This document shows positions 4,667 to 63,762 of a stretch of DNA of 64,000 nucleotides, one piece after another. The stretch spans positions 4,875 through 68,874 of the forward strand of contig CAZAOT010000001.1 in NCBI GenBank assembly GCA_964487045.1, read 5' to 3'. The DNA is from an uncultured Candidatus Saccharibacteria bacterium. GTDB taxonomy: Bacteria > Patescibacteriota > UBA1384 > DTJR01. Each line of letters begins with the position of its first letter. The stretch's first letter is position 1. The position numbers and the translations under genes are program-made. Under the pieces are notes generated by a model, which saw only the letters and a program-made list of their open reading frames with translations, was not told the DNA's origin and did not search any database.

Positions 4667-4668
4667 AA

Positions 4669-6893
<2,225 letters not shown>

Positions 6894-6922
<29 letters not shown>

Positions 6923-38244: not shown

Positions 38245-38321
38245 GCACCCGTAGCTCAGCTGGATAGAGCGTTGGCTTGCGGAGCCAAAGGTCGTAGGTT
38301 CGAATCCTATCGGGTGTACCA
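38245..38321 (+). tRNA. tRNA-Arg, anticodon read as GCG
   Basis: 77-nt cloverleaf: acceptor GCACCCG/CGGGTGT, D-arm GCTCAGCTGGATAGAGC, anticodon stem TTGGC/GCCAA with loop UUGCGGA, T-arm GTAGGTTCGAATCCTAT, CCA encoded; close to E. coli tRNA-Arg by eye. Confidence 0.8.
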
Positions 38322-38322
38322 G
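38301..38322 (+). repeat. direct repeat DR-L (tRNA-Arg 3' end CGAATCCTATCGGGTGTACCAG)
   Basis: exact 22-nt match to 41187-41208. Confidence 0.85.
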
Positions 38323-39776: not shown

Positions 39777-39816
39777 TTTCCTCCTTTTAATTTCATAAAA
39801 ATTTTCTTTTACAATC

Positions 39817-39916
39817 ACAGAATCAAAAGTGGCAATTTGAAGCAAAAATTCCCTACAATTTAGTCGCCGCCGCAGGCGGCGCAAACTCCCAAAATTTGAC
39901 ATTTCCGTACTGGTAC
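39817..39916. repeat. inverted repeat IR1 right copy
   Basis: reverse complement of 38316-38415; ends CCGTACTGGTAC. Confidence 0.85.
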
Positions 39917-47495: not shown

Positions 47496-47524
47496 TTGAC
47501 TAATTATTACTCTTGAGCTATATT
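47496..47524 (+). promoter_or_regulatory. sigma70-type promoter TTGACT-N17-TATATT
   Basis: -35 47496-47501, -10 47519-47524, 17-nt spacer; followed by GCCCC-TTAT-GGGGC leader hairpin. Confidence 0.5.
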
Positions 47525-47575
47525 TTCAGGATTGAGTGCCCCTTATGGGGCCCAAAGGACATTGAGGTGATGGCG

Positions 47576-48730
47576 ATGCGAATCGGCATGTTCACTTTGA
47601 CTTATGGAAGGTCTAACGGCGTGGCCGTCTCCGTCGCCAATCTGAGCCGCGCGCTTCGCGAAGCCGGCCATGAAGTTCATATCTTCGGGCCAAGCGGTGT
47701 GGCGGATACAGACGAATTCTACCATCCGTTCGTGACGGTGCGATTTCCCCAGGCTCCGGACTATCCGGTGCCAATACCGAACTTCCTGCGTGCTCTCAAG
47801 ATAGCGCGTCGGTACAATCTTAAGCTTATGCACACTCACCATCCTTGGCTGCTCGGCAGTGATGCGGTGAGGGTGGCGCGCGAGCTGGAGGTGCCGGTAG
47901 TTTCCACGGTGCACACTCAGTATGATTTCTACTCCGAGCTTTTCCCGTGGATTCCGAGCAAATGGAAGCGCAAAGCGCTGCATTGGGTGCTCAGGCGTCA
48001 CCTCTGCAGTGTCGATCTGGTGACGACGCCGGGCATTGGTTCCAAGGCGCGCCTGGATGACATGCAGCTGACTACGCCGGTTCGTCTCGTCACCAACGGC
48101 ACCGACCTGTCGCTCTTCGGGTATGGCGGCGCCAACGAAATCAGACGCCAGCTCAGAATTCCGGAAGGCGCCCAGGTCTTCGGCTATGTTGGCCGGTTCG
48201 ATCCCGAAAAAGATCTCGGCACCCTGATCGATGCGGCGGCTAAAGTGTTCAAATGGCATCCGCGAGCCGTGCTGCTCATGGTCGGCGACGGTAAAGAGCG
48301 CGAATCGCTCGAGTGGAAATCCAAACCGCTCGGCAACCGAGTCATCTTCACCGGCCGAATTGCCCACGAGCAAATCGCGCCCTACTACAGCGCGATGGAT
48401 ATCTTCGTCACGCCGAGTAGGTTCGAGGTTCAGCCGATGACCATCGCCGAAGCGTTTGCCAGCGGTTTGCCGGTCGTTGCTTTGGATGTGCCTGGCAGCG
48501 AGATGGTCCATCACGGCTACAACGGCCTGCTCGTGGATCCAGCCCAACCGGTAAGCGCCCTGGCTCGAGGAGTCAGTCAGATCTTTAGCGACCCATTCCG
48601 ACATCTGACGCTACAGGGCCACGCCAGAGAGTCGGCGCGGCAGTACGAAACCGCCGAAGCTTTGTCACAGATGCTCAGTGCCTACCAAGACGCCGGCTAC
48701 TTCTGCCGCACTCGTCAGTCGTCCGTCTAA
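47576..48730 (+). CDS. GT4 family glycosyltransferase (GT-B), G+C-rich xenologue of the adjacent gene
   Basis: aligns by eye with 48804-49958 product (VHTQYDFYSELFPWIP vs VHTQYDLYAKLIPLPQ; VDLVTTPGIGSKARL vs VDLVTTPGEGSKQRL; EVQPMTIAEAFASGLPVV vs EVQPMTFAEAMATGTPIV); start ATG 47576 with GAGG 8 nt upstream. Confidence 0.65.
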   Translation: MRIGMFTLTYGRSNGVAVSVANLSRALREAGHEVHIFGPSGVADTDEFYHPFVTVRFPQAPDYPVPIPNFLRALKIARRYNLKLMHTHHPWLLGSDAVRVARELEVPVVSTVHTQYDFYSELFPWIPSKWKRKALHWVLRRHLCSVDLVTTPGIGSKARLDDMQLTTPVRLVTNGTDLSLFGYGGANEIRRQLRIPEGAQVFGYVGRFDPEKDLGTLIDAAAKVFKWHPRAVLLMVGDGKERESLEWKSKPLGNRVIFTGRIAHEQIAPYYSAMDIFVTPSRFEVQPMTIAEAFASGLPVVALDVPGSEMVHHGYNGLLVDPAQPVSALARGVSQIFSDPFRHLTLQGHARESARQYETAEALSQMLSAYQDAGYFCRTRQSSV

Positions 48731-48746
48731 CAAGTAATGGTTCCGT

Positions 48747-48778
48747 GGCCGGAGGTTCGCCTCCGGCCTGTTTTTTTT
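48747..48778 (+). terminator. rho-independent terminator
   Basis: GGCCGGAGG-TTCG-CCTCCGGCC then TGTTTTTTTT. Confidence 0.75.
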
Positions 48779-48803
48779 GAAAAAAGGTTCTACAATTAGG
48801 GTG

Positions 48804-49958
48804 ATGAAGATCGCAATTTTTACTAATACCTATTGGCCAACTGTAAATGGCGTAGCTGTTTCGGCGACTAATTTGCGCGAAGGACTCATTCAGCTTGGAC
48901 ATGAGGTTTTTATCTTTGCGCCAGACGACGAAGATTTGAAGAAGTTGAAAGAACAGGCTAACGTTTATCGCTATCCATCTTTCAATATTAAAGAAATTGC
49001 TGATTATGAATTGGCGCTTCCGTCCTTGAAGATTAATGAAGTTTTAGATAAAAATTCCTTTGATATCGTGCACAGCGAACATCCGCTCTGGATAGGAAAG
49101 TGGGGGATGAATTATGCCAAAAAAACCAATACCCCGATTATTACAACCGTTCATACTCAGTACGATCTCTACGCCAAATTAATACCGCTACCCCAGGGAA
49201 TTTTGGTACCAATTTTACATAAAAATCTTAATCGATATTTAAATAATGTTGATTTAGTGACGACTCCAGGGGAGGGATCGAAGCAAAGGCTGATTGAGCA
49301 AGGAGTGAAGACGCCGATCAGGGTGGTTTCAAACGCGACCGATCTCAGTAGGTACTGGAAGGCCAAAGGAGATAAGGTACGCCGTGAGCTGACTAACAAT
49401 AATGAGAAATTGATTGGGTTTGTCGGGCGGCTATCGAAGGAAAAAGACGTTTCTGTCTTACTTGATGCAATGAATCTTATTTTAAATAAAATGCCTGATA
49501 GTAAGCTCATTTTGATTGGTGATGGTCCGGATAGAAAAGAGCTCGAGGAAAAAGCCAAAACTATTTCAAACAAAATTGTTTTTCTTGGCAAAATTGATCA
49601 TAAACAAATCCCTGATTATTATGCCTCCTTTGATATTTTTCTCTCGGCTAGCCAGTCGGAGGTTCAGCCAATGACTTTTGCCGAAGCGATGGCAACCGGT
49701 ACGCCGATTGTTGTTTTTAATGTTGCTGGTTGTAATGATATGGTGAAAAATCGCGAGAATGGACTATTGATTGACCCTAAAAAGGGCGCCCAGGGATTGG
49801 CAGATGCGGTGACAAAGATTTTAGTAAACGAAAAAGAGTTAAAAAAATTAAGCTCTCAGGCTAGAAAATGGGCCAGCCGCTATGATCTGATGACGGCGAC
49901 CAAAGATATGGTTGAAGCCTATGAGCAGGCAATCAAGATTCACTCAAACAAGAACTAA
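48804..49958 (+). CDS. GT4 family glycosyltransferase (GT-B), A+T-rich native copy
   Basis: MKIAIFTNTYWPTVNGVAVS N-terminus and E-x7-E region typical of GT4 retaining transferases (resembles diacylglycerol alpha-glycosyltransferases by eye). Confidence 0.65.
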   Translation: MKIAIFTNTYWPTVNGVAVSATNLREGLIQLGHEVFIFAPDDEDLKKLKEQANVYRYPSFNIKEIADYELALPSLKINEVLDKNSFDIVHSEHPLWIGKWGMNYAKKTNTPIITTVHTQYDLYAKLIPLPQGILVPILHKNLNRYLNNVDLVTTPGEGSKQRLIEQGVKTPIRVVSNATDLSRYWKAKGDKVRRELTNNNEKLIGFVGRLSKEKDVSVLLDAMNLILNKMPDSKLILIGDGPDRKELEEKAKTISNKIVFLGKIDHKQIPDYYASFDIFLSASQSEVQPMTFAEAMATGTPIVVFNVAGCNDMVKNRENGLLIDPKKGAQGLADAVTKILVNEKELKKLSSQARKWASRYDLMTATKDMVEAYEQAIKIHSNKN

Positions 49959-51079: not shown

Positions 51080-51244
51080 TTTTATAGATCCTTCGACAAG
51101 CTCAGGATTAAAATGCCTTTTTAATTTTCTATTAAAACATTTTCAATTTAACAAAATTAAGGGGTTACCACAACTATTTGCTTGAAAATCGTCTGAAGGG
51201 TGTTAATTTTAATATAGATTCGGGGACCGAAGGGTAGGTGATAG

Positions 51245-51538
51245 ATGAAACTAGCATTTGTCCGCACTGAGAAGGGCTGGCAGCGAGGTTACTTCAGCGG
51301 AAGGATGCTGGTCGTAGGAGACAGCAAGCCAATCTCTGAAGTAGAGGCCAGAAGGCAGCTCAGCTTGCCAGGGGAAACGATCGTCAAGGTGATCGTTTCA
51401 GACCAAGTCTTTCGCGCCTATGACGTACTGATGAGACGGGACGATATGAAACCGGAGCAGGTCCAAATGGGTCTGCTGCCAAAGCCTGACAAACCCCGAA
51501 GAGGGTGCTTGATGTGGTTTCTTCCGCGCCATCATTGA
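51245..51538 (+). CDS. hypothetical protein, G+C-rich
   Basis: 97 aa; SD GGGTAGGTGA before ATG; no motif. Confidence 0.35.
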   Translation: MKLAFVRTEKGWQRGYFSGRMLVVGDSKPISEVEARRQLSLPGETIVKVIVSDQVFRAYDVLMRRDDMKPEQVQMGLLPKPDKPRRGCLMWFLPRHH

Positions 51539-51553
51539 TCCCGAATCTTACAA

Positions 51554-51592
51554 GGGACGCTCCGCCTTGTGCGGTACGTCCCTTTTCCTTTT
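51554..51592. terminator. possible bidirectional terminator between convergent G+C-rich genes
   Basis: GGGACG...CGTCCC stem followed by TTTTCCTTTT; A-run on the other side. Confidence 0.35.
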
Positions 51593-51648
51593 AAAAGTAA
51601 AACGCCCCCCGGACCGTTGGCTCGGGGCATGAGGTTGGCTGGCCGGTG

Positions 51649-51924
51649 CTACTTCTTCTTTGGCCACGCCGGGCAGAGGACGAAGGCAAGCAAGGTGAAT
51701 CCGAGCGCGATGGGCGTTCCGAGGAACGCCCAGGCGACCCCGCTCCATCCCCAGATGGCTCCGGCTGTGACGCACCACCCGATCCATCCGGCGATCCCGA
51801 TGACAAGGGTCCAGAGAATCTTGTCGCCGGCATGGCGGATCCTGGGACAACTTAGGCCGATGAAGACAGCGGCCAAGAGCAATCCCCCTCCAACCGAAAT
51901 CAATGCGGGTACCATCGCACCCAT
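51649..51924 (-). CDS. small membrane protein, G+C-rich
   Basis: 91 aa, three TM helices rich in Trp/Gly; SD AAAGGATGG. Confidence 0.4.
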   Translation of the reverse strand: MGAMVPALISVGGGLLLAAVFIGLSCPRIRHAGDKILWTLVIGIAGWIGWCVTAGAIWGWSGVAWAFLGTPIALGFTLLAFVLCPAWPKKK

Positions 51925-52024
51925 CCTTTCTGTTCTGTTGCCAGATTGTCAAAACGCGATCTGGATATACTAACTCAAGGACAGCTATATTGCAAGCGTA
52001 TGGTTTCGATAATATAGTCGGTTT

Positions 52025-52651: not shown

Positions 52652-52658
52652 ATTCAGC

Positions 52659-52687
52659 TTGTTTGCAATGTAGAAAAAAGGTATAAT
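52659..52687 (+). promoter_or_regulatory. sigma70-type promoter TTGTTT-N17-TATAAT
   Basis: consensus -10 at 52682-52687; AAGGAGGG SD follows at 52702-52709. Confidence 0.45.
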
Positions 52688-52711
52688 TTTAGGTGGATTA
52701 TAAGGAGGGAA

Positions 52712-55700
52712 TTGGTCCAAATACCAAAGATTTTTAGCAAATCCAAATTCTTCAGGTTTAGCGAGGTTAAAACTCGCCCGAATCTTGTTATCAAATTTGG
52801 CAAGATAGAAAAAACGGCTGAAGAAAATGCTAAAAAACCTTCTAATTGGTTGATAGTTCTAACGCTAGTTGCAATTGTCATCGTTCAGTCATATTATCCG
52901 TCTGTTCAGACCAAGGCTTCGGGACAGACTTCGATTTCAAAAACTAGCACTTCTGATTGGGCTAAAGGAACTAATTCCGGAGTTAGTACTAGCTCGGATG
53001 AGGTCAAGATCTCTTCTGTGGATGGTTGGGCTAGTGATAACTACGCCTATCGTAAACAATTGACAGTTTCTGCTCAAGCATCTAATACTGTCACAAAAGG
53101 TCATACCTTAAATGCTGCTGGAGTTGGAAGCGGAACTTTTGATGGTAGCGGTGATTATTTTGATCTGGGCGATAATTATAATTCAACTGCATTGCCTGTA
53201 ACGGTTGAAGCCTGGGTCAAGATTACCGGTTCTGCTCCTGGTAGTGCGGGCTGGATGATTTTTGATTCTGATTCAAGCCCAACTTTCTATTATGGTTTTT
53301 GGATGTATGTGGATGTAAATAGAAATGTTTTTTTAAGTTATGGCGATGGTGGAGGTCAGCTATCTACAAATCGTCGCTCTAAAGTTTCTACCGGGACAGT
53401 ATCTCTTGATACTTGGACTCATGTAACTGGAGTGATTCGAGGTGCGACGGATATGTCGATTTATCTAAATGGTGTAGATGCAGGCGGATCTTACTCTGGG
53501 ACGACGAACAATGCTATGGCTCATTCTGTGGATAAAGCTAGGATTGGCTATCGTAATGTTGCAGTTAACCCAATGATGCGAGGAAATATTGACGATCTCA
53601 GAGTTTGGACAAAAGCTCGAACGACCACTGAAGTTACGGCTGATATGAACAAGGAGATATCTGCCCAGGCTAATTTGGAAGGTTATTATAAATTTAATCA
53701 GTCATCTGGAACTTTAGCCGATGATTCTGGTCATAATATCACTGGTACTGCGACTGGAGACGCAGGTTATTCACCATATTCATACGTTTGGGGTGGTATT
53801 GATACAAAGTCTCTAGTTGACGCAGGTAAGATGCGTTCGGACGGGAATGATTTGAGGGTATATTATGGTTCAAATGAAATTGAAAGGGAGTTAGTTCCAG
53901 CGAATGGAAAAACCCTGGCTACATCAGAGGCGACGCAGGTTTTGTTTAAAGCTCAGGCCCAGGTTGCAGGCGGAGCGACGGATAACGGATATTACTTGTA
54001 TTATGGTGATTCAGACGCTACTGATCCAATTGCGAATGTTTATGAAAAGAAGATGCGGGTTAAGAATGCCTATATCAACCCATCCGATGGAGACTCAACG
54101 GCGAACTCTTTGCAGTATAGCGCTGATAATTTTCCAACCGGCGGGGATGGTACTCTCGAACTGTGGTACAAATGGTCGAATCCGGTTTCTAAGTCGTGGG
54201 CAGGACCAATATTTACCGGCAACGACGATAACTCCTGGAGTATCTTCTATGGCAGATCGGGTTATAGGGTGAGATATGGCATTGGTAGTAGCCTTGTTGA
54301 ACCGTCAGGTAGCAATAATGAAGGAGGCGATTGGAACCATGTAGTACTCACATGGCATAACACGGACACCAATTCACAAATTAGAATCTACGAAAATAAT
54401 GCTTTAACACTTTCCAATGATGCTGGAACCAAAATCACAAAATGGCCCGATTATCTAAGGCTTCAAGATCCCCGAGCAGGGTTTGATGGCATAGAGATTG
54501 GTTTGTTTGACATTTATAACACTGCTAAAGATGCAGCATGGGTGTCGAGCCAATACTCAAGGACAACGGCCGTTCCATATGCAGCCGGCAGAGATACCGC
54601 TGCAACTTTTATACACAACTTTGACGGATCCACGTTTGATGCAACGGAAGCCAATGGGGGTTATGCTTTGGGAACCGCAACAGCTACGGCAACAAATGTA
54701 GCAATGAGTGGAGACTATCGAATGGGCGATACCTACGATGAAAGAGCCAATAATTCTTGGGTTAGCGGCGTTTACTATTGGTATGACGATTTTGCCGGCA
54801 ACGGAACGAAGTCGACGCCATGGAGAGAGATTGGAAAAATAAACACCGTTTCGGATGCTACGGTCTTAGGAAATGACCAGCATCTACTTATGAATAAAAA
54901 TAACATTCCAAGCAGCGTCAGAGTGGAAGCCGAAGCCAAAGGTACTGGACCGAAATTTATTTTCAACGACAGCGGTGCCTTTAACACTAACTTTTGCGGC
55001 GATCAGATGACTAGAGATGTCTATCCCGGCGATAGTGTATGGTGGCCAAGGGGTGCGGCGAGCACTTTTATCAGCGCGACTAATCAAAGTTTCATCTTGC
55101 AAAAACGTGATTATATTACTAACGGCAAGAGGATGTATATCGATATTGTAACTCCCGGGAGCTATAGTGGGCTAACCTATGAATACTGGAATGGAACGGC
55201 CTGGACATCTTTTACTCCAACCGATACAACTGCTGGGTTCACTAAAAGCGGTTATATCGATTTCTCGAATATTTATGATTCTCTAAGCGGTAGCAACCCA
55301 CCCACCGTGGGTACTTGTAACTTTTCGGGTCAAACGTATAACCGATTTATTAAAATTACTGCCACGTCAGTTACTACTGCGGCTACTTATAATATTATCT
55401 ACAATCAGTCAGATCATGCCGAAAATTTATTTACTAATGTGTCAAATGCGTTATCCGGTGATCTTCATAGTGCAACTGGTTCGACTACTATCACTCGAAA
55501 TACTAGTGCGTACAAAACAATCGGCATGTCAAAAACGTCAAACACTATCACAAGCTACATGGACGGCTATCAGACCTTTACCTCGACCGCTTCAGGTGGA
55601 GCTTGGGATAATGCGATGATTGGCCTTTCGGCCACGACTGATGCAACTTACGATAGTTTTAAAGCTTACAAAACATTAACTAGTGAACCTTCGACCGCTC

Positions 55701-58615
55701 AGGCTTCCGAGGCTCCTAAATATATAACTGGTTCGTATTATTCATCACCAACTTCTACAGCGGCTGATTCAGGAATTATTAATCTCGGTTGGATAGGAGA
55801 TTGGGGAACTCCAACCGGCTTTTCGGCAAATGTTACTATTCCGACCAATACCTCAATTGAATTCAAGGTCCGTTCTTCTTCGGTAGCCGGGTCAAATGAT
55901 GCTGACTGGACTGATTGGGCGACGATCGGCTCAGCCACAACGACTGGTGAATATAGTGTAGCTCATGCTTCGATGCCAAATATTACTTTGGGCTTGAATA
56001 AATATTTACAAATTAAGGCCACTTTAAACACTACTGACGGAGCTAGTACGCCTATTTTGAGCGACTATACTATATATTATGTTGCTGATACGGATGCTCC
56101 AACTAATCCTTCCGTTAGCTCTCTTACAGTCAATGGAACGTCAATTACTGCTTCTAACTGGACAAGCGTAAATGGAGCGGTTTTGGCGCAATTCTCTGGA
56201 GCAACGGACGCCGACGACCAATCTGGAGTAGCAGGATATTATATATATTTTGGAACGTCCTCTTCGGCTGATCCAGCTGCAAGCGGAGCATACCAAGCTC
56301 ATGTTGGAGCTGTTGGTGATACTCAAAGCTATGCTTCAACAATTACTACATCAGACGATGGAAAATATTACTATCTAATCTATAAAACCAAGGATGGCGC
56401 TGGTAACACTTCAAATGCGTCGACTTTGTATCAATTTGGCTATGATAAAACTAGTCCGATCAAGCCATCATTTGTCTCGGTTTCACCACTTGGATACACA
56501 ACGTCAAATTCGTTCACTTTTACCTGGCCAGCCGCCTCTGACCCAGATGGAGCAAATGGATCTTCAGGGATTAAATATTACGAATATCGTCGTGGCAATG
56601 AAGCCAACTGGTCGCATACGCTAAATAGCAGCCAGACCTCGGTTGCTTCACTTCAAGCTTATCAGGAAGGAGCGAACGCTTTTTATGTGAGGACGGTCGA
56701 TAGAGCTGATAATATCTCCTCTTCATACTCTCAAGTTACATATTATTGGTCAGGAACTGCTCCTGATAAGCCTGTAAATTTATCGGTTAGTCCCGATACA
56801 GCTGATGAAAATAATTTCGTAATATCTTGGGATAAGCCAACTGTTACAGAGGGGAATCCTCCAGTTGCTGGCTATTACTATTCCATCAATGCTTCTCCGA
56901 CGCTAAACAATATTACTTATATTGCTTCGACTGCAAGCCACGTCGAGCTCCCTGCTTCTAGCTATGCTACTAAGCAAGGGGCCAACATAGTTTATGTATT
57001 ATCCGTTAATGAAGCGGGTAACTTCTCGCTAGAGGAAGCATACATCGCCCAGGCAACTTTTAATTGTCAGACCGCTGCTCCGCCAATTCCGGTATCAGTT
57101 TCTATATCAGATACTACCAACCGCGCATATAATATTTATTCTCTCACTACAAAATGGTCGGCTGGAACTGGCCAAAATCAAACAAGTTTTGATCATTATA
57201 CTATTGAGAGATCAACTGACGCGGTAAATTATTCTGAACTTGCTACTACTACTTCTACAGCGTACATCGATGCTTCAAGTTTAAACAATTCAACAACATA
57301 CTACTATCGTATCAAAGCAGTTGATGATGCTGGCTCGACTTCGGCGGTTTCAACTGTGGTCTTTAAAACTCCGACCGGCAAATATCAGACCCCGCCCAAC
57401 TATCTTTCAAACCCTCAAACTTCAAATATTAAATCTTCTTCGGCCACTATTTCTTGGGCCACAGACCGAGTTTCAAATTCAATTGTAAAGTACGGAAAGA
57501 CTCAGTCGAGCCTAAGTGCTTCTAGCGGACAGCTTGACTCGGTTCTAAATCACGTAGTAGAGCTGCTTGGTCTTGAGCCATCTACTACTTATTATTATCA
57601 AGCTCAGTCGCTGGACAACGAAAGAGATTATCAATCTGACGAAGCTAATAGCGAGATGCAATCATTTACGACCTTGGCGGCGCCTGCAATATCAAATGTA
57701 AATGTATCAAATGTCACACTTTCTTCTGCTGATGTAACTTGGGAAACAACGACTCTTGCTGTTAGCTCGCTTAATTATGGTAATAATTCTAATCTTGATA
57801 AAACGCTTGATGATATTTCGGGATCAAATACTACCAAACACTCGGTTAAGCTTACCGATCTAGGGCATTCAACGCGTTATGGTTTTAGAATTTCCGGAAC
57901 AGATGCAGATAATAATGAACTCACTTCAGACCTTTATTATTTTGAGACACTACCAATGCCTCGAGTTGAAAATTTGAAATTAGAAATCGTGAAGGATAAA
58001 TCTAGGCCAGCCATCAAGGTTAATTGGAATACGAATGTTGCTACTTCTAGCATTGTTAAATATTCTGGATCAGAAGAAACACCAAAAGAAGAAGTGAAGG
58101 CCAAATTAGTCACAGAGCATGAAGTATTGCTTGAAAATCTTTCAGACGAAACTAGCTATAAAGTATCGGTATCAGGAATGGACTCGATCGGTAATTTGAC
58201 CGAAGCTTCATCGGCTTCGATTTTGACTCCGCAGGACTCAAGGCCTCCACAGATTTCTGATATTTCGATTGAAACTTCTAACGTTGGGCTAAACCGTCAG
58301 GATAAGGCTCAAGTCGTAGTTTCCTGGAGGACTGATGAACCGGCCACCAGTCGCGTCGAATATGGAGTTGGGCTAAGTGGTGACAATTATGAGAAGCAAA
58401 CCAGTGAAGATGCCAACCTAACAACAAATCATGTTGTGATCTTATCCGACCTCGAGCCAACCTCGCCATATCATCTAAAGGTTAATTCAAAAGATAAGGC
58501 GGGAAATACTTCAAAAAGTGACGATCAAGTAATTGTCTCTAGCGAAGTACCAAGATCGGTCTTGAGAGTTTTGCTAAACGCCTTAGAAGGAATATTTGGA
58601 TGGATAAAGATATGA
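52712..58615 (+). CDS. giant surface protein (1967 aa) with signal anchor, LamG/concanavalin-like and fibronectin-III-like modules
   Basis: N-terminal TM anchor; LamG-like blocks (NIDDLRVWTKARTTTEV); repeated FN3-like modules (YYYRIKAVDDAGSTSAV, TTYYYQAQSLDNERDY); S/T/N-rich. Confidence 0.6.
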   Translation: MVQIPKIFSKSKFFRFSEVKTRPNLVIKFGKIEKTAEENAKKPSNWLIVLTLVAIVIVQSYYPSVQTKASGQTSISKTSTSDWAKGTNSGVSTSSDEVKISSVDGWASDNYAYRKQLTVSAQASNTVTKGHTLNAAGVGSGTFDGSGDYFDLGDNYNSTALPVTVEAWVKITGSAPGSAGWMIFDSDSSPTFYYGFWMYVDVNRNVFLSYGDGGGQLSTNRRSKVSTGTVSLDTWTHVTGVIRGATDMSIYLNGVDAGGSYSGTTNNAMAHSVDKARIGYRNVAVNPMMRGNIDDLRVWTKARTTTEVTADMNKEISAQANLEGYYKFNQSSGTLADDSGHNITGTATGDAGYSPYSYVWGGIDTKSLVDAGKMRSDGNDLRVYYGSNEIERELVPANGKTLATSEATQVLFKAQAQVAGGATDNGYYLYYGDSDATDPIANVYEKKMRVKNAYINPSDGDSTANSLQYSADNFPTGGDGTLELWYKWSNPVSKSWAGPIFTGNDDNSWSIFYGRSGYRVRYGIGSSLVEPSGSNNEGGDWNHVVLTWHNTDTNSQIRIYENNALTLSNDAGTKITKWPDYLRLQDPRAGFDGIEIGLFDIYNTAKDAAWVSSQYSRTTAVPYAAGRDTAATFIHNFDGSTFDATEANGGYALGTATATATNVAMSGDYRMGDTYDERANNSWVSGVYYWYDDFAGNGTKSTPWREIGKINTVSDATVLGNDQHLLMNKNNIPSSVRVEAEAKGTGPKFIFNDSGAFNTNFCGDQMTRDVYPGDSVWWPRGAASTFISATNQSFILQKRDYITNGKRMYIDIVTPGSYSGLTYEYWNGTAWTSFTPTDTTAGFTKSGYIDFSNIYDSLSGSNPPTVGTCNFSGQTYNRFIKITATSVTTAATYNIIYNQSDHAENLFTNVSNALSGDLHSATGSTTITRNTSAYKTIGMSKTSNTITSYMDGYQTFTSTASGGAWDNAMIGLSATTDATYDSFKAYKTLTSEPSTAQASEAPKYITGSYYSSPTSTAADSGIINLGWIGDWGTPTGFSANVTIPTNTSIEFKVRSSSVAGSNDADWTDWATIGSATTTGEYSVAHASMPNITLGLNKYLQIKATLNTTDGASTPILSDYTIYYVADTDAPTNPSVSSLTVNGTSITASNWTSVNGAVLAQFSGATDADDQSGVAGYYIYFGTSSSADPAASGAYQAHVGAVGDTQSYASTITTSDDGKYYYLIYKTKDGAGNTSNASTLYQFGYDKTSPIKPSFVSVSPLGYTTSNSFTFTWPAASDPDGANGSSGIKYYEYRRGNEANWSHTLNSSQTSVASLQAYQEGANAFYVRTVDRADNISSSYSQVTYYWSGTAPDKPVNLSVSPDTADENNFVISWDKPTVTEGNPPVAGYYYSINASPTLNNITYIASTASHVELPASSYATKQGANIVYVLSVNEAGNFSLEEAYIAQATFNCQTAAPPIPVSVSISDTTNRAYNIYSLTTKWSAGTGQNQTSFDHYTIERSTDAVNYSELATTTSTAYIDASSLNNSTTYYYRIKAVDDAGSTSAVSTVVFKTPTGKYQTPPNYLSNPQTSNIKSSSATISWATDRVSNSIVKYGKTQSSLSASSGQLDSVLNHVVELLGLEPSTTYYYQAQSLDNERDYQSDEANSEMQSFTTLAAPAISNVNVSNVTLSSADVTWETTTLAVSSLNYGNNSNLDKTLDDISGSNTTKHSVKLTDLGHSTRYGFRISGTDADNNELTSDLYYFETLPMPRVENLKLEIVKDKSRPAIKVNWNTNVATSSIVKYSGSEETPKEEVKAKLVTEHEVLLENLSDETSYKVSVSGMDSIGNLTEASSASILTPQDSRPPQISDISIETSNVGLNRQDKAQVVVSWRTDEPATSRVEYGVGLSGDNYEKQTSEDANLTTNHVVILSDLEPTSPYHLKVNSKDKAGNTSKSDDQVIVSSEVPRSVLRVLLNALEGIFGWIKI

Positions 58616-61600
58616 GATACATAGCAAAAATTAAAAATCATTTATTGTTTGCCCTTATCTCCATAATGATCTTATCTGTTGTTGTGATTTCGCCGTGGCA
58701 CAAGCCATCTGTTGCGAGAGCGTCCTGGTATCCTGACGCTGCATGGCAATATCGTCAACAGATTGTAATCGATCATACAAAGGTTGCTGCCGATCAATCT
58801 GATTTTCCGGTAATGCTTAAAATTACCAGTCAGTACAATCCAGTTTTTGCTTCAGCCAAAGACGACGGAACTGATATTTTATTCACCTCAAGTGACGGCG
58901 CCACAAAACTATCTCATGAGATTGAAACTTTCTCTAAAACATCAAAAGAACTTTGGGCATGGGTTAAAATTCCTACATTATCATCGAGTAATGATGTGAC
59001 ACTTTATATGTACTACGGCAATGCAGACGCTACGAACCAACAAAATAATAATGACGTATGGTCCAACAATTATTCGGCTGTTTGGCATTTAGGTGAAGCG
59101 AGTGGCAATTCGTTAGATTCCACATCGAGTGGTATTAGTGGAACGATTGGCACTGGGGTGACCCAAAATGTTTCAAATAAGCTAGCTCGATATTATTCTT
59201 TGGCTGGAGCTGGTTCGGTCAATTATGGAAATTCTAGCGCTCTGCCAAATGGTACTTCAGCAAAAACGCTTTGCGGATGGGGAAGGTCTAATAGTGTAGC
59301 TGTAGGCTATCGCTGGATGGCGGCATATGGAACTGGTGCAACTAACCAAGCACTATTTATCGGGATGAATGGTACTACAGCTTATGGAGGAGGGTATGGT
59401 AACGATCTAACTTCGTCGAATTTTTGGTCTGCAGGTGAATGGAAATATCTGTGTGTAACTTATGACGGGACACAAGGAGCTTTGTACGGCAATGGATCGC
59501 AGCTAGTGGCGCCAACCACAAAACCTTGGAGCTTAGTCAGAAATCAGACATATCTTGGTCAGCAAGTGGGTGCAACTGAATACTGGAATGGAGATCTCGA
59601 TCAGGTTACAATCTCATCAACCGCCAGATCTTCAACATGGATTCAGACGGAATACAATAACCAGAATGATCCCGGAAGTTTTGCTACTTTTTACTGGGAA
59701 AAAAATCAGAACAATTATAATCAGACAACGGAAAGTGATTGGCTTTCATCGAACTGGCTTTATAGACAAAAAATTCAGGTCACAAACAATACCGCTTCGG
59801 CGCTTACAGATTATCAAGTTCTAATTGATAGCGGGTCGTTGAACTTATCTAACGTATTTAGCAAGGCAAATTCGGATGGTTCGGATATAAGATTTGGAAA
59901 TAATTCATCTAGTGAAGAGCTTAATTATTATATGCAATCTTATTCTAAGGTTTCTGGTACGGCTAAAATTTGGGTTAAAATACCTTATTTGCCGGCTAGC
60001 GGGAGCGGATATATTTACCTATATTATGGAAATTCTGGCGCTGCTTCACTTTCAAATTTGACAAATGTCAATTCCTCTACTGAAACTAAAATTAGCATTG
60101 GCTTAACAGCAAATGCTACTTCTTATTTTTCATCCTACGTGCCAGCTAACACTATCGACGGCAATACATCTTCAACTTTTTGGCATGGTAATAATGATGG
60201 TCAGCTGCATAATTTATGGGTTTCGGGGATATCTAATAAAATTTTATCGTCTGTTAAGGTTTATCATTACGCTGGACAGTGGGCTTCAACATTCAAAATT
60301 CAGGGATCAAATGATAATTTTGCTTCAGATATTCGGGAATTTGCCAGTGTTACCTCACCAACTCAAAATATGACTTTCTCTAATATTAATGATTCTGCAT
60401 CTTCGGTAAGATATCAAACCCTTACAACTACAAACTGGTATAATCCTACAATTTATGAAATTGAGATTTATACCAAATTTAAAACTGCCTCTAGCGAGCC
60501 AACCTTAATTTTGAGTGGGAGTGAGGTAGCCTTTGATTCCGATATTCCAAGCAATCCATCATCATTTGTCGGAAAAAATATCTCTGGGGGAGCAATAACA
60601 CTTGATCCAACCGCATATTATAATTACACCACGCCAGAAATCTCCTGGCCTACAGTTGGTTCAGCGGGAGGAGCCAGTGACTCAACTACCGGTGTCGACG
60701 GTTATTATATGTATTTTGGGACCAGTTGCGGCGGCGGAGGTGCTGATCCAGCACTGACCAGAGGGCTACTTAGTGACACGGGCTCGGGTCTTCATTACTC
60801 GGCAGCAGTTTCTATATCTGCTCCGACATTATCGACTGATGGAACTTATTGTCTGCGTCTAAAAACTAAAGATGTTGCAGGCAATATTTCTAGTGCTGTT
60901 GAGGCGTTTGTGTATAAGTTTGATGCCTCATCGCCTTCACAGCCAACATATATAGCCGCGAATCCCGCCGGATATACTTCAACCAATTCCTTTTCGTTCT
61001 CCTGGCCAGCCGCTTCCGATACAGGCGGTTCACTTTTTGCAGGGTATCAGTATAAGCGAGGTGGTAGCTCAGGGGACGGTTGGTCATCGACAATTACTCA
61101 AACCAGTGTATCGGGAATTCAATCTTATCAGACAGGTGAAAATATTTTCTTGGTCAGGGCTATTGATAACGCTCAAAATGTTTCAAGCGAGACCCAAACA
61201 AATTACTATTATTCTTCGAACGCTCCAACCAAGCCGACTAGTTTCTCGGCTTCTCCTGAAATATCTGCAACTAACAACTTTTCCTTTAGCTGGACAGCTC
61301 CAGTGCATGACATAGAAATTGATGAGTATGGCTATTCTATAAATGCCGCGCCAACGATGCAAAATATTACTTGGACAGGCTCAAATTCAACTTCAATTGC
61401 GGCCGGGCCATTTGCCACCAAGCAGGGCGTCAATACTATTTATCTTGTTGCCAAAGATGCTGCGGGTAACTACGCTTTTGATCAGGCTAATTATGCTACA
61501 GCGAATTTCGATTGTCAGACTTCCGCCCCGCCAACTCCAGTGGCCGTATCAGCGGTTGACTCCTCGGATAGATCAATTAGCAGATGGATGATCACAACTC

Positions 61601-63063
61601 AGTGGGCAACTGGCACTGGCCAAGACAGCGCCACATTCCATCATTATTCAGTCGAGCGCTCGACAGATAATGCTACATTTACCGAACTTGCTACTACCAC
61701 ATCAACTGCCTACATCGATGCTGATCTATCAAATACTTCCGCGTATTACTATCGAATAAAGTCTGTTGATAATGCTGGATCCAGTTCGGTTGCTTCGACG
61801 ACAGTTTCGAAAACTCCTACCGGGAACTATCCCACGCCTCCAACGATAGTGTCTGAGCCAACTTCAGTTGTTAAAGCGACTTCAGCGACAGTGACTTGGG
61901 TCACAAATAGAGCTTCAACTGGTGCGGTTAAATTTGGCACATCGGAAAGTGATATGGATCGAAGTCAGCTTGATGCGGAGGAGAGGACGGAGCATCAGAT
62001 CACTCTTCCCGGCTTAGAGCCAAATACGACCTATTATTTCAAGGTTCAATCGCTTGATAGTGCTAGGGACTATTCTGATTCCGAAGCATATTCTTCGATT
62101 TTTACGCTAAAGACACTTGCCTCCCCAGGAATTCAAAACGTAAAAATTACCAATATTAGCTTAGATTCGGCTGATATTTCCTGGGAGACTTCGTCCGCTT
62201 CTACAACCTTGATCAGATATGGGACAACGATCAATTATGATAAGTCGTGGGAAGACGCATCCTCATATACGACTAATCACACATTTAAACTTCAGGACTT
62301 AAATCATACGAGCACATATCACTTTAAAATCAGTGGCCTAGATGCTGATGAGAATAGTATCAATTCAGATGACTATGTTTTTGATACTCTACCATTACCG
62401 AAGATCTCCGCGGTTTCTTTTGACACTGACTATTCGGATGCTGAGCCCCAAACATCAATTAGTTGGACGACCAATGTTGCGACAACTTCCTCGGTTGAAT
62501 ATTTTCCAAAAAGCGGAGGCAATGTCGCTTACGAAGAAAGCCAATCAGACCTGATCACTACTCACAAGGTTAAGCTTACAAAGCTTTCCGACAATACGTC
62601 TTATAGTTTTTATGTTTCTGGAACGGATCAATTTGGAAATAAGGCTACTTCAGATGAATATATCTTTAATACCCCGTTTGACTCAAGGCCGGCCCGAATC
62701 ACCGATGTCCAGGTAGAAACTTCAAATGTCGGATTAGATAAACAGGATAAGGCTCAAATCATTGTGTCGTGGAAGACTGACGAGCCGGCTACGACTCAAG
62801 TCGAATACGGCAAAGGTGTAAGCGGTGATTATACAAATAAGACCAGCGAAGATAAAACTCTCACTAATGAGCATTTTGTTATACTCTCAGATCTCGAACC
62901 AAACCAACCATATCATTTACGGGTAATTTCCAAGGACAAGGGTGGTAACGAATCAATCGGAGAGGATACAAACTCCATTCCTGGAGAAGTACCACGATCC
63001 ATGCTGCAGGTCATATTCTCAACTTTTGAAAAAGTGTTTGGTTGGTTGGAAAAATTAGTATAG
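58612..63063 (+). CDS. giant surface protein paralogue (about 1480 aa)
   Basis: start ATG overlaps upstream TGA (ATGA); cleavable signal-like N-terminus; C-terminal about 700 aa collinear with upstream gene (FDCQTSAPPTPVAVS..., YYYRIKSVDNAGSSSVAS); conserved tail EVPRSMLQV...FGWL. Confidence 0.6.
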   Translation: MRYIAKIKNHLLFALISIMILSVVVISPWHKPSVARASWYPDAAWQYRQQIVIDHTKVAADQSDFPVMLKITSQYNPVFASAKDDGTDILFTSSDGATKLSHEIETFSKTSKELWAWVKIPTLSSSNDVTLYMYYGNADATNQQNNNDVWSNNYSAVWHLGEASGNSLDSTSSGISGTIGTGVTQNVSNKLARYYSLAGAGSVNYGNSSALPNGTSAKTLCGWGRSNSVAVGYRWMAAYGTGATNQALFIGMNGTTAYGGGYGNDLTSSNFWSAGEWKYLCVTYDGTQGALYGNGSQLVAPTTKPWSLVRNQTYLGQQVGATEYWNGDLDQVTISSTARSSTWIQTEYNNQNDPGSFATFYWEKNQNNYNQTTESDWLSSNWLYRQKIQVTNNTASALTDYQVLIDSGSLNLSNVFSKANSDGSDIRFGNNSSSEELNYYMQSYSKVSGTAKIWVKIPYLPASGSGYIYLYYGNSGAASLSNLTNVNSSTETKISIGLTANATSYFSSYVPANTIDGNTSSTFWHGNNDGQLHNLWVSGISNKILSSVKVYHYAGQWASTFKIQGSNDNFASDIREFASVTSPTQNMTFSNINDSASSVRYQTLTTTNWYNPTIYEIEIYTKFKTASSEPTLILSGSEVAFDSDIPSNPSSFVGKNISGGAITLDPTAYYNYTTPEISWPTVGSAGGASDSTTGVDGYYMYFGTSCGGGGADPALTRGLLSDTGSGLHYSAAVSISAPTLSTDGTYCLRLKTKDVAGNISSAVEAFVYKFDASSPSQPTYIAANPAGYTSTNSFSFSWPAASDTGGSLFAGYQYKRGGSSGDGWSSTITQTSVSGIQSYQTGENIFLVRAIDNAQNVSSETQTNYYYSSNAPTKPTSFSASPEISATNNFSFSWTAPVHDIEIDEYGYSINAAPTMQNITWTGSNSTSIAAGPFATKQGVNTIYLVAKDAAGNYAFDQANYATANFDCQTSAPPTPVAVSAVDSSDRSISRWMITTQWATGTGQDSATFHHYSVERSTDNATFTELATTTSTAYIDADLSNTSAYYYRIKSVDNAGSSSVASTTVSKTPTGNYPTPPTIVSEPTSVVKATSATVTWVTNRASTGAVKFGTSESDMDRSQLDAEERTEHQITLPGLEPNTTYYFKVQSLDSARDYSDSEAYSSIFTLKTLASPGIQNVKITNISLDSADISWETSSASTTLIRYGTTINYDKSWEDASSYTTNHTFKLQDLNHTSTYHFKISGLDADENSINSDDYVFDTLPLPKISAVSFDTDYSDAEPQTSISWTTNVATTSSVEYFPKSGGNVAYEESQSDLITTHKVKLTKLSDNTSYSFYVSGTDQFGNKATSDEYIFNTPFDSRPARITDVQVETSNVGLDKQDKAQIIVSWKTDEPATTQVEYGKGVSGDYTNKTSEDKTLTNEHFVILSDLEPNQPYHLRVISKDKGGNESIGEDTNSIPGEVPRSMLQVIFSTFEKVFGWLEKLV

Positions 63064-63072
63064 ACTATTCGC

Positions 63073-63762
63073 ATGGCAGATCTAGCAAAAAAAATACTTG
63101 AAAGTATAAAAGCTGGCTTGGGTTTGATAGGAAAGTATCTTTTAATGGTAATTATAATTGCCAGAAATTTTATCACTCGTAAACGAAGACTTTATGCAAA
63201 CCCGGTATTTTATATTGCTCTTATTGGTGCTTTTTGTGCTGGAGTCTATTTAAGACAACCTGCTCAGAATATAATGTCGAAAAATTCTAAGTCAAAAGAA
63301 AAGACGCAGGTAGCTAAAGTTGTTGAAACTGATTTTTATACTGGTTGGGAAAAATATGAAGATCAGTTGGGATATACGATTCGCTACCCGAAAGATTGGC
63401 AATTTAAAAAAGAAGATGAGCTGTCTAGGTCGTTGTGTAAAGATGAATATTGTCTGTATTTTGCGATGAATAAACAAGGGAGTGGGGAATTAAAAATTTT
63501 CCAGCGCTACGACAAAGAGAAGCCAACAGACTCTGGATACTTAAAAATAGGGGAAGAAAAGCTTAAAAAGCAGAAATATCTAGTTGGCGAGAAAGCAAAA
63601 GAATATTATTATCCAAAAACAGTTCAAAATGTTAAAAATTTTCAAATTATTGCCAGTTTTGCTTATAAAAACAAAAAAGTTGAAGAAGCGAGCGTAGATA
63701 TGGAAACGCTTGATTCAAGAGCGATTGCAGAAAAAATCTTGCAATCAATCGAGCTAAAGTAG
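63073..63762 (+). CDS. hypothetical membrane-anchored protein
   Basis: 229 aa, two N-terminal TM helices then K/E-rich soluble domain. Confidence 0.45.
   Translation: MADLAKKILESIKAGLGLIGKYLLMVIIIARNFITRKRRLYANPVFYIALIGAFCAGVYLRQPAQNIMSKNSKSKEKTQVAKVVETDFYTGWEKYEDQLGYTIRYPKDWQFKKEDELSRSLCKDEYCLYFAMNKQGSGELKIFQRYDKEKPTDSGYLKIGEEKLKKQKYLVGEKAKEYYYPKTVQNVKNFQIIASFAYKNKKVEEASVDMETLDSRAIAEKILQSIELK

What the first reader, a model, noticed from the sequence alone, without database searches (positions are those of the whole stretch)
52659..63063. Two translationally coupled giant surface proteins sharing a conserved C-terminal tail
The second gene's ATG overlaps the first gene's TGA (ATGA). Both encode very large S/T/N-rich proteins with LamG-like and FN3-like modules. 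Their C-terminal ~700 residues are collinear.

Both end in a similar tail: EVPRSVLRVLLNALEGIFGWIKI versus EVPRSMLQVIFSTFEKVFGWLEKLV. This could be an uncharacterised sorting or anchoring signal. Giant adhesin-like proteins of this kind are typical of host-attached ultrasmall bacteria.
Basis: partly seen in the sequence, partly recalled or inferred. Interest (0 to 1): 0.55.

Follow-up and report, generated by a model that had tools for sequence, protein, structure and literature searches.

The report
Conserved tail helix on CPR surface fibres
Two overlapping genes encode large secreted fibre proteins that end in a short conserved helix; this helix ends hundreds of similar proteins in ultrasmall (CPR) bacteria, and their genes usually sit beside a MacB/FtsX-type ABC transporter, so it may be an undescribed way of attaching surface fibres to the cell.

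Summary
Gene 1 (52712-58615, 1967 aa) and gene 2 (58612-63063, 1483 aa) overlap by ATGA. Both carry LamG heads and FN3-type arrays. They are 45% identical over their last ~880 residues and end in the same tail.

The tail is a family-wide element, not a local curiosity. A 16-residue core, S-x-[LI]-[QDE]-x-I-x-x-[NT]-[FL]-E-x-[TI]-F-G-[WF], ends 60 of the 150 best representative relatives. It also ends 89 ORFs in the window and 91 fetched loci. Every match lies within 12 residues of a stop and none is internal. Named sources are all CPR lineages.

The tail is an amphipathic helix, not a transmembrane segment. It matches no Pfam or NCBIfam sorting-signal model, and it always follows the same FN3 domain.

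The new lead is genetic linkage. A MacB_PCD/FtsX permease plus ABC ATPase lies next to the tail gene for 36 of 70 distinct tails; 7 lack it on both sides. In a ~70%-identical syntenic relative it directly follows the same overlapping pair.

My best reading is that the helix is the cell-proximal attachment element, engaged by this transporter. This is inferred, not shown. No such transporter lies inside the window.

The parts
52712..58615 (+). Gene 1: 1967-aa exported protein with an N-terminal hydrophobic segment, a LamG domain, ~800 aa with no family match, an FN3/PAP_N array and the tail
   Evidence: ORF and translation. Identical to public protein P0084. Pfam domains.
52847..52918 (+). Gene 1 N-terminal hydrophobic segment (aa 46-58, WLIVLTLVAIVIV) with a possible signal-peptidase site T-K-A|S after aa 69. 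It follows a 45-aa basic N-region, so it may instead be an uncleaved signal anchor.
   Evidence: Read from the translation. No signal-peptide predictor was available.
53141..53635 (+). Gene 1 Laminin_G_3 (concanavalin-like lectin) domain, aa ~144-308
   Evidence: Pfam PF13385, E=1.5e-20, 74 bits
56006..58537 (+). Gene 1 FN3 / purple-acid-phosphatase-N-type repeat array, collinear with gene 2
   Evidence: BLASTP 45% identity over 884 columns. Pfam fn3 and Pur_ac_phosph_N. AlphaFold2 model of the last repeat is an FN3 sandwich with pLDDT above 90. Foldseek hits are FN3 domains.
58538..58612 (+). Gene 1 C-terminal tail SSEVPRSVLRVLLNALEGIFGWIKI. The helix core SVLRVLLNALEGIFGW is 58556-58603.
   Evidence: Translation. 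Tail HMM 27.9 bits at aa 1944-1966 of 1967. Predicted helix at residues 118-130 of the last 135 aa, pLDDT 63-76. Hydrophobic moment 0.49.
58612..58615 (+). ATGA overlap: gene 2 start codon and gene 1 stop codon
   Evidence: Sequence. The same overlap is present in relative L091.
58612..63063 (+). Gene 2: 1483-aa exported protein with a signal peptide, DUF2341, LamG, DUF2341, F5/8-type-C, an FN3 array and the tail
   Evidence: ORF and translation. Pfam. Orthologue P0103 is 69% identical.
58612..58722 (+). Gene 2 signal peptide (MRYIAKIKNHLLFALISIMILSVVVISPWHKPSVARA|SW), with a likely A-x-A cleavage site
   Evidence: Read from the translation. The orthologue has ...VKA|AW. Inference only.
58864..60441 (+). 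Gene 2 head: DUF2341 (aa ~85-169), Laminin_G_3 (aa 207-345), DUF2341 (aa 422-486), F5/8 type C (aa ~500-610)
   Evidence: Pfam
60460..62979 (+). Gene 2 FN3/PAP_N repeat array, collinear with gene 1
62980..63060 (+). Gene 2 C-terminal tail PGEVPRSMLQVIFSTFEKVFGWLEKLV
   Evidence: Translation. Tail HMM 39.3 bits at aa 1461-1486 of the 1487-aa ORF. Hydrophobic moment 0.50.
63073..63762 (+). Downstream 229-aa ORF with predicted membrane segments, starting 9 bp after gene 2. Whether it belongs to the system is unknown. It sits where the relative L091 has the ABC ATPase.
   Evidence: ORF. No Pfam or NCBIfam match. No homologue in any fetched locus.

Best explanation
Genes 1 and 2 are paralogous, Sec-exported surface fibres of a CPR (Patescibacteria) bacterium. 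Each has a different lectin-like head (LamG alone, or DUF2341/LamG/F5-8C). Behind the head is a shared stalk of FN3-type domains. Each ends in a ~25-residue tail whose 16-residue core folds as an amphipathic helix.

I propose that this helix is the cell-proximal attachment element. After export it stays at the outer face of the cytoplasmic membrane. There it is bound or handled by a dedicated MacB/FtsX-family (type VII, mechanotransmission) ABC transporter, so the stalk projects the binding head outwards. The transporter could hold the fibre, release it, or transmit force to it.

**Shown**
- The gene pair, its domains and the tail.
- The tail's family-wide conservation and its strictly C-terminal position.
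- Its helical, amphipathic character.
- The operon-level linkage of tail genes to the transporter in relatives.

**Inferred**
- Export and signal-peptide cleavage.
- The orientation of the fibre.
- Any physical contact between the helix and the transporter or the membrane.
For: **Conservation**
- The tail is conserved in orthologues and paralogues at 54-88% identity.
- It is also conserved across a far wider family. A profile search found 12,068 relatives of the last domain; 60 of the best 150 end in the tail.
- A metagenome scan seeded on two peptide patterns, NFExTFGW and one from the last FN3 domain, gave 290 confirmed places.

**Position**
- A tail-only HMM hits 89 ORFs, all within 12 aa of the stop. 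There are no internal hits there or in the 150 long representatives.

**Strength of constraint**
- The helix core is more conserved than the FN3 domain before it (2.9 vs 2.1 bits per column; F invariant, W 86%, I 91%).
- Conserved polar residues (N/T and T) sit on the hydrophobic face. This suggests a specific protein contact rather than generic lipid binding (helical-wheel reading).

**Structure**
- AlphaFold2 gives an FN3 sandwich (pLDDT above 90) followed by a separate helix (pLDDT 63-76).
- The hydrophobic moment is 0.42-0.50, against 0.21 for shuffled sequence.

**Export**
- Many members have N-terminal signal peptides with A-x-A sites. The mature protein therefore has no other anchor.

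**Linkage to the transporter**
- An ABC ATPase plus a MacB_PCD/FtsX permease are adjacent to the tail gene for 36 of 70 distinct tails. Only 7 lack it on both sides; the rest are not fully assessable.
- Gaps between the tail gene and the ATPase are often -11 to +20 bp.
- 37 permease genes lie within 3.5 kb of tail genes, in 345 kb of sequence. None lies in the 292 kb farther away.
- Domain identities are confirmed.
- In L091, the syntenic relative of this window (trpS, nucleotidyltransferase-like gene, gene 1 at 72%, gene 2 at 69%, same ATGA), the transporter starts 60 bp after gene 2.

**Comparative argument**
- Homologous FN3 arrays outside this group carry T9SS sorting domains or transmembrane anchors at the same end.

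**Orientation**
- The binding modules are N-terminal. In L008/L009 the head of a tail-bearing protein is diversified by a DGR. That fits a head-out, tail-in arrangement.
Against: - No ABC ATPase or FtsX permease lies in this 64-kb window. A 229-aa unknown membrane protein follows gene 2 instead.
- One tail subfamily (ENIIQIIIGNFTEIFGWAKF) has no transporter within 8 kb.
- The linkage is between gene families. It cannot by itself be attributed to the tail rather than to another shared part such as the FN3 array.
- No contact was modelled or measured.
- Gene 1 has a long basic N-region before its hydrophobic segment. It may be N-terminally anchored, which would weaken the argument that the tail is the only anchor.
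- The loci were retrieved through the tail or last domain, so the taxonomic and contextual sample is not unbiased.
- MacB-type transporters are not known to anchor proteins.
Confidence: 0.45

Rival explanations
1. Autonomous in-plane lipid anchor. The amphipathic helix lies on the outer leaflet of the cytoplasmic membrane by itself, as in E. coli PBP5/PBP6 or pestivirus Erns. The neighbouring ABC transporter serves some other purpose.
For: - High hydrophobic moment and only moderate hydrophobicity.
- An aromatic F-G-W followed by alternating hydrophobic and basic residues (W-L-K-K-I-K), which is typical of interfacial binding.
- The helix is predicted as separate from the domain.
- The window itself has no transporter.
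Against: - Lipid-binding helices usually conserve physicochemical pattern rather than residues. Here S, Q/D, N, E, T and G are conserved, with N and T on the hydrophobic face.
- A 16-residue helix is a weak anchor for a 150-650 kDa fibre.
- This reading leaves the strong operon linkage unexplained.
Confidence: 0.2
2. Extraction or release signal. The tail transiently holds the newly exported fibre in the membrane. The MacB-type transporter then pulls it out, as LolCDE does with lipoproteins, to release it or pass it to the wall, S-layer or a pilus.
For: - The same linkage evidence as for the best explanation.
- The ATPase and permease score best against LolD, LolC/E, MacB and FtsE/X models, all below their cut-offs.
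Against: - The tail is not lipidated and not hydrophobic enough to need extraction.
- No acceptor component recurs in the neighbourhood, apart from a TM+TPR protein in 16 loci.
Confidence: 0.15
3. Structural or oligomerisation element. The helix caps the last FN3 domain or pairs with the helix of another chain. For example, it could join the gene 1 and gene 2 stalks made from the coupled genes.
For: - Heptad-like spacing of hydrophobic residues.
- Tandem tail-bearing paralogues recur: the window, L091, L001, L053 and L059.
- MacB transporters are dimers, so two tails per transporter is conceivable. This rests on general knowledge of the family.
Against: - 13-16 helical residues are too few for a stable coiled coil.
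- Most loci have a single tail gene.
- The helix has lower model confidence than the domain, so it is not obviously packed onto it.
- This reading does not explain the transporter linkage.
Confidence: 0.12
4. Classical cleaved sorting signal. The tail is recognised and removed by a sortase-, exosortase- or rhombosortase-like enzyme that attaches the protein covalently.
For: - Strictly C-terminal, with a conserved motif and often basic residues at the very end.
- Related proteins in other lineages use known sorting signals at this position.
Against: - No membrane-spanning hydrophobic segment.
- No match to any NCBIfam CTERM model.
- No sortase-like family among recurrent neighbours.
- The tail is found only behind one domain type rather than on unrelated proteins.
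Confidence: 0.06

Closest known systems
FtsEX with EnvC / PcsB / CwlO / RipC, and LolCDE with lipoproteins (type VII, MacB-family ABC systems)
   Same: An ABC ATPase plus a four-helix FtsX-type permease with an extracytoplasmic domain (MacB_PCD). It is encoded next to an exported partner that carries a helical element. The transporter acts on the partner outside the membrane rather than carrying a solute across it. Domain evidence.
   Different: - The partner here is a 0.5-6 kaa FN3 fibre with one short C-terminal helix. It is not a coiled-coil hydrolase activator or an acylated N-terminus.
- The ATPase and permease score below every NCBIfam equivalog cut-off.
- Most ATPases carry a ~200-aa C-terminal extension with no family match.
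- No interaction has been shown.
C-terminal amphipathic-helix membrane anchors of exported proteins (E. coli PBP5/PBP6; pestivirus Erns, PMC3937272)
   Same: An exported protein with a terminal amphipathic helix and no transmembrane segment. The hydrophobic moment is well above shuffled controls.
   Different: The tail shows residue-level conservation across CPR classes, a fixed position behind one FN3 domain, and genetic linkage to an ABC transporter.
Tripartite C-terminal sorting signals (LPXTG/sortase, PEP-CTERM/exosortase, GlyGly-CTERM/rhombosortase, MYXO-CTERM) and the T9SS C-terminal domain
   Same: A strictly C-terminal conserved element on exported surface proteins. It occupies the position that T9SS domains or transmembrane anchors occupy in homologous FN3-array proteins.
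   Different: - No hydrophobic transmembrane helix.
- No cognate peptidase nearby.
- Not found on unrelated proteins.
- It is a 25-residue helix, not a ~70-100-residue beta-sandwich.
Large DUF2341 / FhaB-type proteins of Patescibacteria discussed as adhesion factors (PMC11809585)
   Same: Large CPR proteins with DUF2341 and repeat arrays, proposed to mediate adhesion or host interaction.
   Different: In the passages I retrieved by term search, that paper does not describe a conserved C-terminal tail or the transporter linkage.
Type 1 secretion adhesins (LapA, SiiE) with C-terminal secretion signals
   Same: A giant repeat adhesin, a C-terminal signal and an adjacent ABC transporter.
   Different: - These proteins have N-terminal Sec signals.
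- They have no RTX repeats.
- The transporter is MacB/FtsX-type, not a T1SS exporter.
- No membrane-fusion or outer-membrane partner is present.

Membership tests
FN3 / PAP_N repeat surface proteins with LamG-type heads | Multiple fn3 / Pur_ac_phosph_N domains and a concanavalin-like lectin domain in an exported protein | tested here: met
   Pfam hits are above the gathering cut-offs in both genes. The predicted structure is an FN3 fold.
Tripartite C-terminal sorting signals (LPXTG, PEP-CTERM, GlyGly-CTERM, MYXO-CTERM and similar) | A hydrophobic membrane-spanning helix of ~18-22 residues after the signature motif | tested here: not met
   Core GRAVY is 0.6 for the family and 0.8-1.25 for the window tails. 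Q/D, N and E are conserved inside the helix.
Tripartite C-terminal sorting signals | A match to a curated CTERM model | tested here: not met
   The NCBIfam scan of whole proteins and of the last 135 aa at E<=0.1 gave only weak hits in the FN3 part.
Tripartite C-terminal sorting signals | A cognate sortase, exosortase or rhombosortase, with the signal present on many unrelated proteins of a genome | tested here: inconclusive
   No such family is among the recurrent neighbours. In the window the tail is only on the two paralogues. Whole genomes could not be surveyed.
T9SS type A C-terminal sorting domain | A ~70-100-aa beta-sandwich matching TIGR04183 | tested here: not met
   There is no hit for the window tails. 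Non-CPR relatives P0003 and P0004 do hit, at 36-46 bits.
In-plane amphipathic-helix anchors (PBP5 type) | A terminal helix with a high hydrophobic moment on an exported protein | tested here: met
   AlphaFold2 predicts a helix. The hydrophobic moment is 0.42-0.50, against 0.21 +/- 0.11 for shuffled sequence.
In-plane amphipathic-helix anchors (PBP5 type) | Binding to lipid bilayers | not testable with these tools
   This needs liposome flotation or fractionation.
Partner proteins of MacB/FtsEX/LolCDE-type ABC systems | Encoded with an ABC ATPase and an FtsX-type permease that has an extracytoplasmic domain | tested here: inconclusive
   Met in relatives: 36 of 70 distinct tails, and L091, the syntenic relative of this window. 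Not met inside this window. The sequence past 64000 could not be obtained.
Partner proteins of MacB/FtsEX/LolCDE-type ABC systems | Physical binding of the partner's helical element to the permease | not testable with these tools
   Only single-chain prediction without contact output was available.
Type 1 secretion (RTX) adhesins | No N-terminal signal peptide, RTX repeats, and a T1SS ABC exporter with a membrane-fusion protein | tested here: not met
   N-terminal hydrophobic signals are present. There are no RTX hits. The linked transporter is MacB/FtsX-type.

The most novel reading that the evidence does not exclude
The F-G-W helix and its MacB/FtsX-type ABC transporter form a previously unrecognised, CPR-wide system for mounting surface fibres. 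A mechanotransmission ABC transporter would hold the C-terminal helix of FN3 fibres and use ATP to hold, release or pull on them. In some members the heads are DGR-diversified. This would amount to a new class of C-terminal anchoring system, and a possible force-generating link in attachment to host cells.
Probability: 0.3. Interest if true: 0.8.

Novelty: new variant of a known kind. Interest (0 to 1): 0.62.

Why it matters
CPR bacteria may make up a large share of bacterial diversity. The cultivated ones live attached to host cells, yet apart from type IV pili and the recently described Pam pili little is known about how their surface structures are mounted.

This work defines a short conserved C-terminal helix shared by hundreds of large lectin-headed fibres across Berkelbacteria, WWE3, Uhrbacteria, Parcubacteria-group and Saccharibacteria-labelled genomes. 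It is genetically tied to one transporter type.

That gives three things:
- a sequence signature for finding these fibres;
- a specific two-component hypothesis that can be tested;
- a possible new job for MacB-family transporters.

If the tail turns out to be only a structural end-piece, the result is still a useful family definition. It would not then be a new mechanism.

Tried and rejected
**Searches that gave little**
- The word-indexed protein search returned only one hit each time, so it was of little use for this family.
A narrower alignment worked.
- Exact look-ups of gene 2 with either start found nothing.
- The look-up of gene 1 returned only a 9.3-kb contig. I therefore could not see what lies beyond position 64000, where the transporter might be.
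- Promoter and terminator scans were no better than shuffled sequence.
- Foldseek against the PDB gave only generic FN3 matches.
- PF28407, listed for a relative, turned out to be an Ig-like family (Ig_ANOS1) unrelated to the tail.
- Six literature searches found no description of the tail or of the linkage.

**Ideas considered and dropped**
- I considered modelling the tail fused by a linker to two permease copies. I did not run it. The structure tool reports no contacts or PAE and restricts the sequences it accepts, so the result could not have been interpreted.
- A transmembrane tail-anchor reading was rejected on hydrophobicity.
- A type 1 secretion reading was rejected because of the N-terminal signals and the transporter type.

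Full report
**1. The observation**

The region holds two long same-strand ORFs. Gene 1 runs from a TTG at 52712 to a TGA at 58613-58615 (1967 aa). Gene 2 runs from 58612 to 63063.

The frame opens at 52652, and the first start codon is the TTG at 52712, three bases after AAGGAGGG. The public protein P0084 is identical to the product of that start.

Gene 2's ATG at 58612 overlaps gene 1's TGA as ATGA. A second ATG lies 12 nt upstream. The relative L091 has no such upstream ATG and starts its gene 2 at the ATG of the same ATGA overlap.

Both proteins are about 31% Ser+Thr+Asn.

Pfam finds the following:
- Laminin_G_3 in gene 1 (aa ~144-308, E=1.5e-20).
- DUF2341, Laminin_G_3, DUF2341 and F5/8-type-C in gene 2.
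- fn3 / Pur_ac_phosph_N repeats in the C-terminal halves of both.

A single BLASTP alignment joins the last ~880 residues at 45% identity and runs through the tails. Each gene begins with a basic stretch and a hydrophobic segment. Gene 2's ends in V-A-R-A|S, a plausible signal-peptidase site. Gene 1 has an unusually long basic N-region and could be a signal anchor (read by eye).

**2. The tail beyond this window**

In the window the tail occurs only on these two ORFs.

A scan of one genome per species found six loci, all in CPR metagenome-assembled genomes: Berkelbacteria (three copies in one genome), two labelled Saccharibacteria, and ADurb.Bin212. All six end in the same tail at 54-69% identity in the last domain.

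A profile of the last FN3 domain plus tail, run against 1.84 billion representative proteins, found 12,068 relatives. Among the best 150, 60 proteins of 0.9-6.3 kaa end in the tail.

The consensus is T-[IL]-L-T-P-x4-S-[VI]-[LI]-[QD]-[ILV]-I-[ILV]-x-[NT]-[FL]-E-x-[TI]-F-G-[WF], followed by 3-10 residues that are often hydrophobic alternating with basic. The window's "EVPRS..." version is one subfamily of this.

A metagenome scan, seeded on two peptide patterns (NFExTFGW and a second one from the last FN3 domain), gave 290 confirmed places, of which 80 were fetched.

A tail-only HMM then hit 89 ORFs in the window and the fetched loci. Every hit lay within 12 residues of a stop. None was internal, either there or in the 150 long representatives.

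Named members come from Uhrbacteria, WWE3 and a Parcubacteria-group genome, as well as the lineages above.

Across 114 sequences the helix core is more conserved than the FN3 domain before it. The core averages 2.9 bits per column and the domain 2.1. F is invariant, W is at 86% and the central I at 91%.

**3. What the tail is physically**

AlphaFold2, run on a 48-sequence alignment of the last 135 residues, gives a confident FN3 sandwich (pLDDT above 90). A linker and a separate helix follow at residues 118-130, with pLDDT 63-76. Foldseek confirms the FN3 fold.

The core has a hydrophobic moment of 0.42-0.50, against 0.21 +/- 0.11 for shuffled versions. Its GRAVY is only ~0.6, and Q/D, N and E are conserved inside it. 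It is therefore amphipathic, not membrane-spanning.

On a helical wheel the hydrophobic residues cover about 200 degrees. The conserved N/T and T fall inside that face. I read this as a sign of a specific protein contact (inference).

No Pfam or NCBIfam model covers the tail.

**4. The comparative argument for a sorting or anchoring role**

Among the same 150 relatives, 22 end like T9SS C-terminal domains and 2 end in a hydrophobic helix followed by basic residues. Of three T9SS-like endings tested, two exceed the TIGR04183 cut-off.

The C-terminus of this kind of FN3 array is therefore where different lineages place their sorting or anchoring device. The CPR proteins place the helix there.

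Tail-bearing proteins share only the FN3 array and the tail. Their N-terminal halves differ and mostly match no family. Many have clear signal peptides with A-x-A sites.

With binding modules at the N-terminus and the stalk next to the tail, a head-out, tail-in arrangement is the natural geometry (inference).

**5. The linkage to a MacB/FtsX-type ABC transporter**

All-against-all comparison of neighbouring ORFs showed two families recurring next to the tail gene: an ABC ATPase and a ~400-aa permease. Pfam identifies them as ABC_tran and MacB_PCD + FtsX. NCBIfam scores them best against LolD/FtsE/MacB and MacB/LolCE/FtsX models, all below the equivalog cut-offs.

The breakdown for the 70 distinct tails is as follows:

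| Situation | Distinct tails |
|---|---|
| Transporter adjacent, downstream | 30 |
| Transporter adjacent, upstream | 6 |
| None on either side | 7 |
| None downstream, upstream not visible | 17 |
| Flanks too short to judge | 10 |

Gaps between the tail gene and the ATPase are often -11 to +20 bp. As an internal control, 37 permease genes lie within 3.5 kb of a tail gene, in 345 kb of sequence. None lies in the remaining 292 kb of fetched sequence.

The most relevant locus is L091, a 64.7-kb contig syntenic with this window. It carries, in order:
- trpS on the opposite strand;
- a nucleotidyltransferase-like gene;
- a gene 1 orthologue (72% identity);
- a gene 2 orthologue (69% identity) with the same ATGA overlap;
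- 60 bp later, a 232-aa ABC ATPase and a 400-aa MacB_PCD/FtsX permease.

In the window a 229-aa unknown membrane protein occupies that position, and the window ends 240 bp later. No ABC ATPase is present anywhere in the 64 kb.

Other recurrent neighbours are a TM+TPR protein (16 loci), PilT-like ATPases (8 loci) and response regulators (8 loci).

**6. Mechanism**

MacB-family transporters are known to use cytoplasmic ATP hydrolysis to do work on partners outside the membrane. Examples are LolCDE on lipoproteins and FtsEX on EnvC/PcsB-type helical partners (established knowledge; reviews PMC5985334, PMC7668044).

The simplest reading of the data is that the tail helix is the element through which the fibre meets this transporter at the outer face of the membrane.

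I cannot tell whether the transporter anchors, releases or pulls on the fibre. I also cannot exclude that the helix binds lipid on its own, pairs chains, or is a cleaved signal. These are listed as rivals.

The weakest points are:
- the absence of the transporter from this window;
- one tail subfamily with no transporter nearby;
- the fact that linkage between gene families does not identify which part of the protein is involved.

**7. Novelty and verdict**

Large FN3/DUF2341 proteins of CPR bacteria are known and are discussed as adhesins (PMC11809585). I found no family model and no paper describing the conserved C-terminal helix or its linkage to MacB-type transporters.

I classify it as a new variant of a known kind: a C-terminal attachment element, and a partner of a type VII ABC system. 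I give about a 30% chance that it is a distinct anchoring system in its own right.

Noticed in passing
L009 4299-4417 (TR), 4611-5711 (RT), 6873-6991 (VR); L008 4243-4331 and 6862-6950: A canonical diversity-generating retroelement targets a tail-bearing protein. 13 of 14 mismatches (L009) and 8 of 8 (L008) fall at template adenines. The variable region lies at aa 365-404 of the 1544-aa tail-bearing protein, so its head is hypervariable. The same contigs carry the ABC pair and phage genes (SU10 major capsid).
   Followed up: yes
N-termini of representatives P0010, P0019, P0025, P0078, P0089, P0139: Many tail-bearing proteins share a conserved mature N-terminus directly after the A-x-A signal-peptidase site: (A)T[FY]TW.Q..W.GG. 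This is a second conserved terminal element of unknown role. It is absent from the window's two genes.
   Followed up: no
e.g. L085 3990-5315, L010 8624-10114: Most ABC ATPases linked to tail genes are 413-496 aa. They carry a ~200-aa helical C-terminal extension with no Pfam or NCBIfam match. The window-type subfamily (L003, L004, L006, L091) has the ordinary 232-252-aa form.
   Followed up: partly
e.g. L017 680-1321, L022 8436-9077: A ~213-aa protein with an N-terminal membrane segment and TPR repeats lies directly after the tail gene, or after the ABC pair, in 16 loci. It may be a fourth component of the module.
   Followed up: partly
window 51200-52000: A GC-rich patch (0.50-0.68, against 0.35-0.44 around it) between trpS and the nucleotidyltransferase-like gene. 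Overlapping Pro/Arg/Gly-rich ORFs occur on both strands. There is no Rfam match at E<=1 and no counterpart in the relative L091. It remains unexplained.
   Followed up: partly
window 27869-30804: A GC-rich island (0.56 against a window mean of ~0.42). It encodes a 589-aa protein with an N-terminal PlsY-type glycerol-3-phosphate acyltransferase domain and a GpsA-like dehydrogenase. It may have been acquired horizontally.
   Followed up: partly
window 38245-39902: A large serine recombinase (Resolvase + Recombinase + zinc ribbon, 531 aa, minus strand) abuts tRNA-Arg (38245-38321). This suggests an integrated mobile element.
   Followed up: no
window 47513-49958: Two tandem GT4 glycosyltransferase paralogues (38% identity). 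The first is more GC-rich and contains a 353-aa antisense ORF (47543-48604), probably an artefact of composition.
   Followed up: no
window 58595-58614; L091 ~9985-10003: The conserved F-G-W-I codons (TTT GGN TGG AT.) at the end of gene 1 lie 8-17 nt before gene 2's ATG and are purine-rich (GGATGGA / GGTTGGA). The tail coding sequence may double as a weak ribosome-binding site for gene 2.
   Followed up: no
C-termini of representatives P0057, P0058, P0093, P0095, P0140: Several non-tail relatives end in an acidic or glycine-rich run followed by C-F-[IV]-x-[AST]... This may be another uncharacterised C-terminal signal. No NCBIfam model matched the one tested (P0058).
   Followed up: partly
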